Positions 21,181 through 35,802 of a DNA stretch of 64,000 nucleotides are shown here, one piece after another; positions within the stretch are counted from its first letter, which is position 1; each line of letters starts with the position of its first letter. The DNA lies in contig OZ024740.1 in NCBI GenBank assembly GCA_964016885.1, forward strand, positions 214,644,001 through 214,708,000, written 5' to 3'. The stretch comes from Eledone cirrhosa (Eukaryota). The notes under the pieces were generated by a model that was not told where the DNA came from, made no database searches, and saw nothing but the letters and a program-made list of their open reading frames with translations. A program made the position numbers and the translations under genes.

Positions 21181-21368
21181 ACGAAGGAAATGTGGTAAGG
21201 AACCAGGTGGACCATAACGCACCAAAGTACTCAATACTTGGGGTAGTAGAGTGGGTAATAGGAACCAGTAAGACCCCGACGGCTGAGCTCAAGCCGTTTC
21301 GACGGCTAGTCCAGAATTAGCCGTCGAAACGGCTTGAGCTCAGCCGTCGGGGTCTTACTGGTTCCTAT
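21181..21368. mobile_element. Half-hammerhead fold-back family, copy 1
   Basis: Long antisense arm, loop 21309-21317, short arm tagccgtc-GAAA-cggct..agccg-TC-ggggtc; in (TA)n. Confidence 0.8.
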
Positions 21369-21389
21369 ATATATATATATATATATATA

Positions 21390-21519
21390 TACAATCAAGA
21401 TCTCATATATATATATATATATATATATATATATATATATATATATATATATATATATATATATATATATATATATATATATATATATATATATATATAT
21501 ATATGAGATCTTGATTGTA
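21390..21519. repeat. Palindrome centred on a (TA)n tract
   Basis: tacaatcaagatctca-(TA)n-tgagatcttgattgta. Confidence 0.9.
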
Positions 21520-22090
21520 TTTTTCATCATGTTGTATTTTATGAAAAGTTAACAGAATTTTTACATGTTTTTTCAAGCTTTAAAAATTCGATATTGAATG
21601 CCATTCGGCTCAGAATATATCAACTTTAATATGAAATAAACTAGCATTCAGCCTTACTTTTCACCTAATGAAAGGTTTTATTTTAATAAGTCACATTCTA
21701 GGCACATTTATTTCTATATTATTATGCTCATCCACTAAAGTTTCCTGAATATTCCGATCATTTTAATCACCACCCACCATCTTAAGATTTTATCGTCATT
21801 TAAAACGAGAATTTCCTCTCATGCAATTCTGAAGCATTCATGCATTTTCTTTTTTATAGGATGCAAATGTGTTTTATTGGTGAGGAATATTTTTTGCATC
21901 ATGGAAAATGGGTGTATGTATAGATGTGTATAAATGTATGTATATATGTATGTATGTGTGTATATTGATGCATGTATGTGTGTGTAAGTATGTATGTATG
22001 TGTATGTAAGTATGTACGTACGTATGTATGTATGTGTGTATATATGGGTGGATGGATGCATATATATATATATATATATATATATATATA

Positions 22091-22293
22091 ACGAAGGAAT
22101 TGTGGTAAGGAACCAGATGGACCATAACGCACCAGAGTACTCAATACTTAGAGTAGTAGAGTGGGTAATAGGAAAAAGTATGACCCCGACGGCAGAGCTG
22201 AAGCCGTTTCGACGGCAATTTCTAGACCATAGCCGTCTAGAAATAGCCGTCGAAACGGCTTGAGTTCTGCCGTCGGGATCATACCTTTTCCTA
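22091..22293. mobile_element. Half-hammerhead fold-back family, copy 2
   Basis: Homologous to 21181-21368 with the same architecture. Confidence 0.8.
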
Positions 22294-22507
22294 TATATAT
22301 ATATATATATGTCTATGTATATATATATATGTATATATAAATACATGTACATATACAAATGTAAATATGCATATATACATTTACATATATCTCTCTATAT
22401 ATGTATGTGTGTGTGTGTGGGTGGGTGTGAGTGTGTGTGTGTGTGTGTGTGTGTGTGTGTGTGTGTGTGTGTGTGTGTGTGTGTGTGTGTGTGTGTGTGT
22501 GTGTGTG

Positions 22508-22635
22508 TTACTGGTACTTTATTTTATCAACCCGGTAAGGATGCAAAGCAAAGTTAACCTCGGTGGGATTTGAACTTACAACTTAAAGGGCCGCAACTAT
22601 CTGCCGCAAATCATGTTGTCAAGTGCTCATCACCA
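22508..22635 (-). mobile_element. SINE-A, partial and diverged
   Basis: Core and B-box match. Confidence 0.7.
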
Positions 22636-22827
22636 TCACCTTTCAAAAGAATAAATAACATCCAAGCTGGCTCTCCAGCCCAGTCTTTAACACTTCTTGC
22701 TCAAAGAAAATTACTAAGCCTGCATTATCTACTGCACAATACACACTCCCCCACACCATATTAGGTGACAAGTCAATCGGACTTTCAAGAGTCCCACAAT
22801 GCTGCTACTTGGCGAAATGTTTAGTGA

Positions 22828-23028
22828 TATGAGAGTGGGCTGAAAAGTTCATAGACTGACTATGAAGGAGTGATTCTAGAGCTGTGAAATCTTGCATGTA
22901 TTAATTTCAACTCTTCTTATTAATAACTGCATTGTTTTTTCCAGGGACTATCTTGAACAATAAACCTCATTTGGTAATTCCATGAGAGTATCTTGGTCAT
23001 CCTATGAACCTTTTAGCGGACCCTCGTA
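22828..23028 (+). mobile_element. Mariner-type MITE, single unit
   Basis: tatgagagtgggctgaaaagttcatag...ctatgaaccttttagcggaccctcgta; TA ends. Confidence 0.8.
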
Positions 23029-23787
23029 TGTAAAAAAATGTGATCCTTTAAGATAGAGTAATGCTTCTCTCGGAAGTCAGTGCCCATGGCGGCTGCCTGG
23101 TTGGCCTAGTTGACGTAATTGACTTAGTGGTCGCGCCGTCCCTATATGTGGACCAAGGGCAAAACTACATTTAAAAAATAAAGTGGACTAAAATCTAGCT
23201 AATTCCTGGCCTAAACTGTTTAGAGAGACAGCTTACATGATACATTACAGTGAAGTTAAATATAACAAGGGACACAACTCTTGCATTACATACACATTTT
23301 TTTTCACTGATCCCTTAAGGAGGTACAAAATAACAAACTGATGTGAAGTTTATTCCTAGGTTTCTCGAAGATATTTTTAAGACAGGAGACATTCATGGAT
23401 TGAGAACTGTAACCAAGACTCGGACACCATTCTACAGCAGCATAATTGTAGTCTTCGATGATTGAGATATTGAGTGCCATGCTATATGTTTAAATACATA
23501 TATGTAACTATGTATGTATACATGTATACATACATATATACATACATACTTATATATATATATATATATATATATACATACACACATATACATATATACA
23601 TACATTCATACATACATACATACAAACATACATTCATTCATACATACATTCATTCATACATACATACATACATACATTCATACATACATACATATATACA
23701 TACATACATACATACATACATACATACATACATACATACATACATACATACATACATACATACATACATACATACATACATACATAC

Positions 23788-33033: not shown

Positions 33034-33460
33034 ATAATAATTGTTTCTACTTTTGGCACAAAGCCAACAATTACCTCAGTGTATTACTGGTGCTTTATTT
33101 TATCGACCCCATAAGGATGAAAGGCAAAGTTAACCTCAGCGGGATTTGAACTCAGACCATAGATGGCTTTAATTCTATGTTGCAAAGCATGGAGTCCGAC
33201 CTTCTACAGATACTGCCAATTCACCGCCCTTAAAGCAAATAATAATGGTTTCTTATATAGGCACAAGGCCTGCAATTTTGAGCGGGAGGGGAAAGTCGAT
33301 TAAATCGATCCCAGTATGTGACTGGTACTTTATATTATCGACCCCTTAAGGATGAAAGGCAAAGTTAAACTCGGTGGGATTTGAACTCAGATCATAAAGA
33401 GTCATAATTCTATGTTGCAAAGCATGGCGTCCGACCCTCTACCGATACTGCCAATTCACC
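33034..33460 (-). mobile_element. Two tandem SINE-A copies (33034-33228, 33238-33460)
   Basis: Head, core and tail match. Confidence 0.9.
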
Positions 33461-34038
33461 ATATCAAAGGAAGAGACTTACCTTGAAAATGTTATTACTT
33501 ATATAAAATGAAGTGAAATAACTGTGAGTGAAAGCAAGATATTCGGTTGAGAGACGGCTTATTTCTAATTCTACAGCATTCACATAGTCACTTTATTGAT
33601 AACTATTGATTTCTATATTTACAAATACACTAACTTGTACAATTGTGAGAGGATTCTTGAAATGAAGACGGACGTATGTTCCCCAAGGGTATTAAAGATA
33701 TATGAATAGAATGAATTAGCTTTAATTAGCGAAACCAGCGTTCACTATTTTGCCTTCAGGAAGGTTATATTGTATTTGTCATGAAGTTACACACACACAC
33801 AATATATATATATATATATATATATATATATATATATATATATATATATATATATATATATATATATATATGTGTATATATATATATATATATATATATG
33901 TATGTGTATATATATGTATATATATATATATGTATGTGTATATATATATATATATATATATATATATATGTGTATATATATATATATATATATATATATA
34001 TATATATATATATATATATATATATATATATATATATA

Positions 34039-34562
34039 TATAAACAAGGTTTAGTAAATAATGAAAAAGTTTCAAAATAAATTTTAAAAAATTGACTTTA
34101 CCTACTATAGTTACCTTTACCGATCGGTTTCGAATCCCAAAAATAAAACGGAGACCATACGGCCTTCGTTTGCCTCTATCTTTACTACGGCCCTTGATAA
34201 ACCTGTTCTACATCATCCACTCTCATCCCAGGAACAGTCTTTGATAGCGCTAGTTTGTGATTTAAATTCAGGAATTTTATATTCTTTGAATGAAAAGAAC
34301 CTTCTGACGAGAATCTCTCTTTGCAACGAAGGCCGTATGGTCTCCGTTTTATTTTTGAGATTCGAAACCGATCGGTAAAGGTAACTATAGTAGGTAAAGT
34401 CAATTTTTTAAAATTTATTTTGAAACTTTTTCATTATTTACTAAACCTTGTTTATATTTGTTCTGGCTCGTTAATTTATTAACCCGCCATTGAACCACAC
34501 TGGCACTTCGTTGGACAATACATGCGTACCTTGGCGCCTTGTGCGTGAAGGGACGTATTTCA
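34039..34562. mobile_element. Fold-back PLE-type unit: arms 34039-34173 / 34323-34456, about 105-bp tail, (TA)n on both sides
   Basis: Reverse-complement arms; full hammerhead in the right part. Confidence 0.85.
34299..34382 (+). ncRNA. Canonical type-I hammerhead ribozyme with long loop II
   Basis: acctt-CTGACGA-gaatctc...gagattc-GAAA-ccgatcgg-TA-aaggt; all core nucleotides intact. Confidence 0.9.
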
Positions 34563-34924
34563 TATATATATATATATATATATATATATATATATATATA
34601 TATATATATATATATATATATATAAACGTTAGAATATGTGTAATAAGGCCAAGACAATGCAGGTATGGACATAGAAAAAAGAATGCAATAGTGAAAGATA
34701 TTGATGTGAATTCGTCTTTCACCTTGAATTTATTTAAATGTCCTTAATTTTCGAGATAATATCTCTTCTTCGGGGGGAAGTAAAGGTCTCAGACCAGCGT
34801 CTTTAAATCTCTAATGAAGCCATGCTGACCGGAAATAGTATAGAGTATATATATATATATATATATGTACGTATGTGTGTCGGTGTGTGTGTTTACATAC
34901 ACACAAATATATATATATATATAA

Positions 34925-35280
34925 GGCTTGAGCCCGTGCTATCCGCCCACATCAAAAATCAAACTCGCATCTCACGACAACAATACGGTACAATTATTTC
35001 ACCTCAATTGGCCCCGCTCTCTTTAACATTACACTAAAACACATTAAAACAGAAACAGACTCCATAAAATTCAAAACGTTTCTGGACATGTGTAAAGTGA
35101 ACCAAGAAATTCCGAATAAACCTCCTACACTCGGATATGTCTCCGTAAACAATAACTCTCTACTTGAGTGGGACATGGTGTCCAAATCCTGATTTGGAAG
35201 ACTTCGCCAGGTTGTGCTATTAATTTAGACATGCCCTGGGCCAATACTGGCCGAAACCTATCAAAGTTATCAAAGTTATA
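34925..35280 (+). mobile_element. CR1-like LINE 3' end
   Basis: NYFTSIGPALFN...FKTFLD...IPNKP..GY...NNSLLEW then stop; 3' stem-loop ggcc-aatact-ggcc; terminal (tatcaaagt)2. Confidence 0.75.
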
Positions 35281-35303
35281 CACACACATATATATATATA
35301 TAT

Positions 35304-35572
35304 AATATGTATAAATATTTCGTATCTCCAAGGAAATACAATTTTAGGAAGCCACAGCTATGCAAATACCGGGGGCTAACGCCCTCTGGTGATGTCCAGC
35401 AGAAGCAAGGGGGACAACCGTCTATGCATTTCAGGCTTAACTGGCCTTCGTTAGGATGGTCCCTCCCACCGGTGTTTGCATAGCTACGGCTTCCTAAAAC
35501 CGTATTGCCTTGGAGATACGAAATATTTATACATATTGTATAAAGCTATGCTTGAAGCGAAATCCTATTTCT
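35304..35572. repeat. Fold-back unit: arms 35304-35372 / 35469-35537, flanked by (TA)n
   Basis: Imperfect reverse-complement arms; no intact hammerhead core. Confidence 0.8.
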
Positions 35573-35670
35573 CTCTCTATATATATATTTATATATACAT
35601 ACATATATATATATATATATATATATATATATATATATATATATATATATATATATATATATATATATAT

Positions 35671-35802
35671 CAGTGTGGTAAAAACTGGGTAGACCATAAC
35701 TCACCAGAGTACTCGATAATTGGGGTAGTAGAGTGTGTAATATGAAGAGATTCAGGACCCCAACGGCTGAACTCCGGCCGTTTCGACAGCTAGATCCGGA
35801 TC
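35671..35802 (-). mobile_element. Half-hammerhead family, copy 4
   Basis: Homologous to 21181-21308; ends in the mini-palindrome agatccggatct. Confidence 0.75.

What the first reader, a model, noticed from the sequence alone, without database searches (positions are those of the whole stretch)
21181..35802. A family that always breaks or folds back at hammerhead stem II
Seen: four diverged copies (21181-21368, 22091-22293, 28226-28365, 35671-35802) keep the 3' half of a hammerhead: stem II strand, GAAA, a 5-bp stem III, a GUC triplet and GGG(G)TC. None has CUGANGA. All have their sense 5' boundary at about the stem II loop. In two copies that loop is the centre of the palindrome, and a third ends in a mini-palindrome. 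Inference: nascent cDNA snaps back on the ribozyme's own stem II and self-primes second-strand synthesis. Alternatively, the half motif is a substrate strand completed in trans by another RNA.
Basis: partly seen in the sequence, partly recalled or inferred. Interest (0 to 1): 0.75.

Follow-up and report, generated by a model that had tools for sequence, protein, structure and literature searches.

The report
Jumping-gene start site inside a hammerhead
These four repeats are tiny fragments of a very abundant Penelope-type jumping gene, and most of its copies stop at one spot inside its predicted self-cutting RNA, likely because that spot is where the capped transcript begins and both cut DNA ends copy the RNA up to it, not because the copy folds back.

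Summary
The four copies are real. They are 5'-truncated arms of a Hydra-type Penelope-like retroelement (PLE): 70,198 exact core matches, an intact 719-aa RT/GIY-YIG copy, insertion in (TA)n. The parent has a complete type I hammerhead with a U3-A8 core (UUGANAA), not CUGANGA (5,954 complete copies). The pile-up is real but not 'always': of 100 tail-anchored arms, 48 end 10-24 nt upstream of GAAA, 34 end earlier, 11 pass the ribozyme. Snap-back on stem II is not supported: junctions vary, none of 42 keeps the 33-nt loop, and the short arm often reaches further than the long arm. Best reading: the two DNA ends prime at two fixed internal RNA sites, as shown in vitro for an anole PLE, and run off the capped 5' end at an initiator-like motif inside stem II. 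An untemplated G sits before A(-18) and A(-13) but rarely before neighbouring bases. A smaller peak at the GUC site suggests cleavage in vivo. No RNA data were available. The scan reached the promoter reading before on other DNA (e1-9577420); the cap-G and cut-site counts are my additions.

The parts
21181..21308 (-). Copy 1, long arm: reads from -8 (relative to G12 of GAAA, at 21300) through stem III, the GUC site and the 77-nt tail into (TA)n
   Evidence: 97.6% identical over 126 nt to the intact parent unit of L195
21307..21367 (+). Copy 1, short arm: reads from -19 to TTCCTA (+41); G12 at 21326; joined head-to-head with the long arm through a 2-nt TA overlap
21308..21308 (+). A at -18 of the initiator-like YYAGTYC motif; inferred main transcription start of the parent
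   Evidence: conserved in parents; drop in continuation; untemplated G in other copies; inference
21348..21349 (+). Predicted hammerhead cut site GUC|GGGGUC in the short arm (long arm: 21278|21277 on minus)
   Evidence: excess of 5' ends here in other copies
22091..22227 (-). Copy 2, long arm (subfamily B), from -17; G12 at 22210
22228..22234 (.). Copy 2, 7-nt junction insert that repeats part of the stem II 3' strand
   Evidence: sequence; slip origin inferred
22235..22293 (+). Copy 2, short arm, from -17 to +41; G12 at 22252; shares the GTCTAG variant with the long arm
28226..28365 (+). Copy 3, old single long arm from about -14; G12 at 28241
35671..35798 (-). Copy 4, long arm of the older subfamily C from -14; G12 at 35784; GUU at the cut site
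   Evidence: 128 complete C-type parents
35797..35802 (+). Copy 4 mini-palindrome: likely a few-base remnant of the inverted partner arm
   Evidence: sequence; inference
57680..57729 (-).
57755..57839 (+). Further copy: same layout, opposite orientation, no hammerhead part

Best explanation
The four repeats are 5'-truncated, head-to-head arms of a Hydra-type Penelope-like retroelement, and they likely end where the element's capped RNA begins, at an initiator-like motif inside stem II of its predicted hammerhead. Shown: the parent with RT/GIY-YIG ORF and complete U3-A8 hammerhead; insertion in (TA)n; one long-tail plus one short arm per insertion; junctions made anew each time; the pile-up of ends at -10..-24; an extra G before A(-18) and A(-13). 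Inferred steps: (1) the pLTR promoter starts the mRNA at A(-18), less often at A(-13), so the mRNA's 5' end has only the 3' half of the ribozyme while its 3' end has the whole one; (2) the endonuclease cuts both strands of (TA)n; (3) the two DNA 3' ends prime at two fixed internal sites, +41 and +121, near the RNA's 5' end; (4) both cDNAs run off the capped end, sometimes copying the cap; (5) host end-joining trims a few bases and joins them head-to-head; (6) only read-through, tandem or circular RNA gives the roughly one in ten copies that pass the ribozyme; (7) a minority of templates were already cut at GUC.
For: Parent: L195 holds an uninterrupted 719-aa ORF with RWR, DKT, YRDD, CxCx5C, GIY-YIG without CCHH, CxxC and CxH, the Hydra features in Craig 2021 section 11. 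2,054 homologues among 7,996 candidates scored; the best 120 are 38-54% identical. The tail is the ORF's 5' leader in the tandem copy. Ribozyme: 93.3% of 608 cells pair; both-sided changes in stem II and at the 3-8 pair. Breakpoints, 100 tail-anchored arms: 34 end 3' of G12, 5 at -1..-9, 48 at -10..-24, 2 at -25..-60, 11 beyond. In 600 kb taken at fixed round coordinates, 0 of 15 arms pass -23. Continuation falls from 0.84-0.99 per base to 0.62 at -18 (142 non-complete arms). Cap mark, counted by eye in arms joined straight to (TA)n: G before A(-18) in 12 of 84 sites against G before G(-17) in 2 of 84; G before A(-13) in 10 of 32 against 2 of 56 before C(-14) or C(-15); Fisher p 0.01 and 0.0005. 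Untemplated G as a cap mark is stated for LINE-1 and SVA in PMC4859970 (two passages). Two arms: 55 of 59 partners of long arms are short, 0 long, 4 unclear; arms of one insertion share the subfamily marker in 36 of 43 against 18% across insertions; junctions are 20 microhomology, 7 blunt, 15 with inserts. Two internal RT start sites and extension of both DNA strands were shown in vitro for the anole PLE (PMC11167929). Cut site: 5 of 100 arms start at +22..+24 (0.9 expected, p 0.003); genome-wide 402 at +23 against 32 at +27 and 26 at +20, with 36 of the first 100 at +23 left after setting aside possible indels.
Against: No RNA start was observed. The upper edge is not sharp: 12 of 142 non-complete arms match to -22 (partly chance or microhomology), and many ends lie at -11..-16. 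The extra G could be an RT habit after copying A rather than a cap. The cap and cut-site tallies are by eye on the first 100 listed rows. 64 of the first 100 hits at +23 could be indels or microhomology. The initiator consensus is recalled, not from a call. One active-looking subfamily has a C3.A8 mismatch (L137, L138, L281). In the anole PLE no reads ended at the cut site and there was no strand difference in start site. The 100 arms come from the first 19 Mb of one contig and from young subfamilies. Covarying cells count sequences, not events; pairs with both-sided change did not exceed shuffles (189 of 500). Pfam gave only a weak GIY-YIG hit (E 0.069).
Confidence: 0.72

Rival explanations
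1. RT stalls or is ejected inside stem II of the folded ribozyme on a long template (the 5' strand re-pairs and displaces the cDNA); the two stalled cDNAs are then end-joined.
For: The pile-up lies just past the 3' strand of a conserved, covarying helix. It is spread over about 12 nt. The full ribozyme folds as a three-way junction with helix probabilities 0.65-0.98.
Against: It does not predict an untemplated G specific to A(-18) and A(-13). Only 2 of 13 arms that pass -24 stop in the rest of the ribozyme, and stems I and III cause no comparable pile-up.
Confidence: 0.12
2. The short palindromes are their own non-autonomous family: copies that keep the start motif are transcribed and recopied, so the pile-up is amplified by descent.
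For: 13,350 exact short palindromes against 5,954 complete ribozymes. Some junctions recur (three of 42 identical). The 40 best-scoring matches to copy 1 all have both arms, though the query selects for that.
Against: Junction lengths vary widely (34-60 nt matches). The three identical junctions sit on different subfamily backgrounds. Copy 2's GTCTAG variant also occurs in longer arms (L172, L178). It still needs a reason for the position, so it adds to the start-site reading rather than replacing it.
Confidence: 0.08
3. One reading: the nascent cDNA snaps back on the ribozyme's stem II and primes its own second strand.
For: The two arms of one insertion are nearly identical (mean 1.65 against 4.62 differences in 41 nt). 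Self-priming was proposed for head-to-head PLE palindromes (PMC3846280, passages).
Against: 0 of 42 junctions keep the 33-nt loop. The short arm reaches further in 14 of 42, including copy 1 (-19 against -8). Loop bases are in the sense direction in both arms. One arm is joined head-to-head to a different PLE family (L032).
Confidence: 0.04
4. The half motif is a substrate strand completed in trans, or the AG at -18/-17 is a splice acceptor.
For: An excess of 5' ends at the GUC site shows that cut RNAs likely exist. The bases before the AG are pyrimidine-rich, and a Drosophila Penelope intron ends at its hammerhead (PMC4209133).
Against: Complete cis ribozymes are abundant. No shared upstream exon or leader is seen at the junctions. 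Neither idea explains the half copies better than truncation.
Confidence: 0.04

Closest known systems
Hydra-clade C-terminal EN+ Penelope-like elements (Craig et al. 2021, PMC8557442; section 11 and passages read)
   Same: RWK-like motif, DKT, CxCx5C linker, no CCHH, CxxC and CxH, (TA)n targets, hammerhead, tandem and inverted 5'-truncated copies with an optional tail.
   Different: Tail is 77 nt, not 30-40; unit is 3,118 nt; core is U3-A8 with a 33-nt stem II loop; tens of thousands of tiny two-arm copies. The parts read describe no breakpoint hot spot. Supplementary files were not seen and may list this family.
Poseidon PLE of Anolis (Frangieh et al. 2024, PMC11167929; parts 1-2 of 4 read)
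   Same: Two internal RT start sites that bound the tail, both DNA strands cut and extended, AT-rich targets, uncut RNA as main template.
   Different: Other clade. There the start site did not differ between strands and no reads ended at the cut site; here insertions almost always pair one long with one short arm, and a cut-site peak is seen in the genome.
U3-A8 hammerheads of Schistosoma Cercyon PLEs (Cervera and de la Pena 2014, PMC4209133; parts 1-2 of 4 read)
   Same: U3-A8 in place of C3-G8, pLTR position, opposite-strand pairs, palindromic loop 3, extra bases at the start of helix II.
   Different: This ribozyme has a real 5-bp helix III and a long helix II, so it may fold as a monomer; those are minimal motifs thought to need dimers.
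Head-to-head Penelope palindromes of Adineta vaga (Arkhipova et al. 2013, PMC3846280; passages) and the internal promoter of D. virilis Penelope (Schostak et al. 2008, PMC2377424; passages)
   Same: [quoted passage not shown]
   Different: Those palindromes were read as self-priming; the junctions here fit two separately primed cDNAs.
Metazoan non-LTR retrozymes (bioRxiv 10.64898/2026.07.22.740005; part 1 of 5 read)
   Same: Small non-coding PLE-derived sequences with type I hammerheads.
   Different: Retrozymes are tandem arrays with complete ribozymes; these are dispersed half-ribozyme fragments of a coding element.

Membership tests
Hydra-clade PLE | Single ORF with RT and C-terminal GIY-YIG | tested here: met
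   719-aa ORF, YRDD, VIY..YIG; top homologue carries PF01541; own Pfam hit weak
Hydra-clade PLE | RWK motif and DKG changed to DKT | tested here: met
   RWR and DKT in L195 ORF; RWR is a conservative variant
Hydra-clade PLE | CxCx5C linker, no CCHH, CxxC and CxH around the conserved E and N | tested here: met
   CNCPDRSIC; one Cys between GIY and YIG; CNLC and CKH
Hydra-clade PLE | Insertion into (TA)n | tested here: met
Hydra-clade PLE | Canonical hammerhead in the pLTR | tested here: inconclusive
   Hammerhead present but mostly U3-A8; C3-G8 in 3 of 20 C-type loci
Hydra-clade PLE | Falls in the Hydra clade of an RT tree | not tested
   No reference Hydra proteins were in hand
Neptune/Nematis PLE | CCHH motif and CX2-5CxxC linker | tested here: not met
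   my first guess, dropped
Type I hammerhead ribozyme | Core with 3-8 pair, UGA, A9, G10.1-C11.1, GAAA, UH | tested here: met
   3-8: UA 24, CG 2, UG 1, other 2 of 29; 10.1-11.1: GC 25, GU 3
Type I hammerhead ribozyme | Three helices, open at helix I | tested here: met
   88-97% of cells paired per helix; slid controls 25-49%; fold
Type I hammerhead ribozyme | Self-cleavage at UH | not testable with these tools
   Only indirect: excess 5' ends at +23
Non-LTR retrozyme | Tandem non-coding units each with a complete hammerhead | tested here: not met
   Dispersed half-ribozyme arms of a coding parent
Capped Pol II start site | Untemplated G at the 5' end of copies | tested here: met
   counts by eye
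Capped Pol II start site | RNA 5' ends map there | not testable with these tools
   Needs CAGE, RACE or raw RNA reads

The most novel reading that the evidence does not exclude
The element places its start site inside its own hammerhead as a switch. The capped mRNA carries an inert half-ribozyme and yields tiny two-arm copies; pairing with the 5' half at the RNA's own 3' end completes a split ribozyme, removes the cap and makes the unit-length or circular template for full copies. The genome then holds a fossil record of cap, cut site and both priming sites, giving in vivo evidence for PLE hammerhead cleavage and two-ended priming on one RNA.
Probability: 0.2. Interest if true: 0.75.

Novelty: new member of a known kind. 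Interest (0 to 1): 0.52.

Why it matters
How Penelope-like elements make their head-to-head palindromes, and whether their hammerheads cut in vivo, are open questions in the papers read. This family gives tens of thousands of natural products that favour two separately primed cDNAs over self-priming, mark a likely start site by a cap-type G, and show a peak at the cut site. An intact copy (L195) makes each step testable. It also means that many miRNA- or MITE-looking hairpins in this genome are PLE stubs (copy 1 scored against miRNA models).

Tried and rejected
CUGANGA parent search: 30 hits against 4 control; none an intact ribozyme of this family, several from other hammerhead families. Rfam: no hammerhead among the 150 rows shown; microsatellite-driven miRNA hits only. 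The repeat finder was swamped by simple repeats. 'One palindrome amplified as a unit', suggested, was dropped after searches showed variable junctions. Neptune clade, my first guess, was dropped. Pfam: no family at E 0.001. Sequencing runs: no RNA holder listed; read laying not used because only contigs were offered. Splice acceptor at the AG: no shared upstream exon. Non-templated G as a cause of the +23 peak: at +20 only 5 of 26 have G before the break. Literature: seven searches listed no paper whose title or abstract start reports a PLE breakpoint hot spot at a start site inside the hammerhead; an octopus repeat annotation (PMC13282606, passages) has no occurrence of Hydra or ribozyme. Subscription papers, Repbase and supplements were not seen. 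The host looks cephalopod from repeat content and earlier notes; this was not established.
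Full report
Numbering. Positions are given relative to G12, the G of the hammerhead's GAAA (0); negative is upstream in the ribozyme's sense.

Observation. Each has the 3' strand of stem II, GAAA, a 5-bp stem III with a palindromic loop and GGG(G)TC; copy 4 has GUU. Copies 1 and 2 are a long arm with a 77-nt tail joined head-to-head to a short arm ending at TTCCTA, both ends in (TA)n. Two more copies in the window (57680-57716, 57767-57839) begin about 50 nt downstream of GAAA, so the family does not always break at stem II. 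The 16-nt core has 34,989 + 35,209 exact matches in the own genome and 0 for the control.

The parent. A CCTGANGA pattern gave 30 hits, none an intact ribozyme of this family. Two hits shared extra upstream bases, which led to longer copies. These carry the missing half: stem I 5' strand, UUGANAA, G10.1, then CGGCTATT closing a 33-nt loop. There are 5,954 exact complete copies of the young types and 128 of copy 4's older type. On 29 complete copies 93.3% of 608 cells pair, against 25-49% when slid; stem II has three pairs with both-sided changes, and position 3-8 is UA in 24 and CG in 2. Pair counts did not exceed shuffles (189 of 500), so covariation rests on few events. U3-A8 is known from Schistosoma PLEs (PMC4209133). 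Between inverted complete ribozymes lie RT and GIY-YIG frames. L195 holds an uninterrupted 719-aa ORF in a 3,118-nt unit, with RWR, DKT, CxCx5C, no CCHH, CxxC and CxH, the Hydra-clade features of Craig et al.; no tree was built. In this tandem copy the tail continues into the ORF's 5' leader, so both arm ends lie inside the RNA, near its 5' end.

Is the hot spot real? I took the first 100 of 34,779 long-tail ends, all on contig C1, and extended each upstream against real long copies. Ends: 34 downstream of G12, 5 at -1..-9, 48 at -10..-24, 2 at -25..-60, 11 beyond. The per-base rate is 0.10 at -10..-24, 0.021 at +22..+24 and 0.002-0.009 elsewhere. In 600 kb taken at fixed round coordinates, 15 arms were found and none passes -23 (a profile search found 18 arms with the same picture).

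Not snap-back. Folding back on the real stem II would keep the 33-nt loop, at least 55 nt between the two G12s. The longest of 42 junctions is 48 nt. The short arm reaches further in 14, the long arm in 23, equal in 5; 20 show microhomology, 7 are blunt, 15 have inserts. In 16 of 59 paired insertions the long arm lacks the core while the short arm has it (a few may be internal deletions). The short arm then cannot be a copy of the long one, and the long one has a tail that the short one lacks. In L032 an arm is joined to a different PLE. Yet arms of one insertion share their subfamily marker (36 of 43 against 18%), and long arms pair with short ones (55 of 59, none long; 62 long-short, 1 long-long, 1 short-short, 7 unclear in a wider set enriched for long arms). 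This fits two cDNAs primed from the two DNA ends at two fixed sites of one RNA or one source. Frangieh et al. showed two internal start sites and extension of both strands in vitro.

Why there? If RT starts near the RNA's 5' end, the copy length is set by that end. All subfamilies keep YYAGTYC with A at -18, although the rest of the loop differs; it fits the initiator consensus as I recall it. Among 142 arms without a complete ribozyme, continuation is 0.84-0.99 per base to -17 and 0.62 at -18. In arms joined straight to (TA)n, an untemplated G precedes A(-18) in 12 of 84 distinct sites (100 rows, 16 duplicates) and G(-17) in 2. It precedes A(-13) in 10 of 32 but C(-14) or C(-15) in 2 of 56 (88 distinct sites, 12 duplicate rows dropped); p 0.01 and 0.0005. 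These tallies are by eye. Such a G is the accepted mark of a copied cap in LINE-1 and SVA (PMC4859970), and an internal promoter is shown for Drosophila Penelope. Against: the edge is blurred, an RT habit after A cannot be excluded, and no RNA start was seen.

Cut site. Five of the 100 arms start at +22..+24 (0.9 expected; one is a microhomology join). Genome-wide, arms whose three upstream bases all differ from the parent number 402 at +23, 32 at +27 and 26 at +20 (the +20 pattern admits two thirds as many flanks). Setting aside 64 of the first 100 as possible indels or microhomology leaves 36, three from one array, so about 135-145: roughly 3.5- to 4.5-fold above controls. This suggests that some templates were cut at GUC; cleavage itself is untested, and one subfamily has a C3.A8 mismatch.

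What is known and what is not. The element type, the U3-A8 core, head-to-head copies with an optional tail and two-site priming are in print. In seven searches I saw no listing for a hot spot at a start site inside a PLE hammerhead. The scan's own notes hold the same promoter reading on other DNA of this genome (e1-9577420), which I saw after writing the idea down, and two-armed retrozymes; these are unchecked notes and no support. A search by sequence and by place found nothing.

Verdict. A real, very abundant new member of a known kind. Interest 0.52.

Noticed in passing
window 58250-61819: A second, different PLE with inverted arms (536 nt, 98%), RT-EN frame 35% identical to the parent, long tail on one arm only; both arms have CCGAAGA where CUGAAGA is expected.
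   Followed up: partly
window 36708-37145: GIY-YIG fragment of a third PLE, 36% identical to the parent.
   Followed up: no
L032:730-1600 (G000:C1 about 170.965 Mb): Chimeric insertion: an arm of this family joined head-to-head to the 3' part of another PLE that has a minimal CUGAAGA hammerhead.
   Followed up: partly
L137, L138, L281, L169: Complete ribozymes with a C3.A8 mismatch in young-looking copies; a natural test of whether cleavage is needed for spread.
   Followed up: no
L289, L303, L306: Old branch with the canonical C3-G8 core and G10.1-U11.1, so the 3-8 pair switched within the family.
   Followed up: partly
L033, L034, L042, L047, L050-L053, L055: Another dispersed (TA)n-tailed family with a compact CUGA(A/U)GA hammerhead.
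   Followed up: no
G000:C2:332357178-332361049: Tandem array of tail units that start at the predicted cut site.
   Followed up: no
rows: Four of five (TA)n-joined arms with C at -18 have G before it, perhaps a variant start.
   Followed up: no
window 21396-21519 and 35308-35527: Other palindromes: one centred on a long (TA)n right after copy 1, and an element with long terminal inverted repeats before copy 4.
   Followed up: no
L040:1300-1520: Junction holds a long fold-back of unrelated DNA next to an arm that starts at -18.
   Followed up: no
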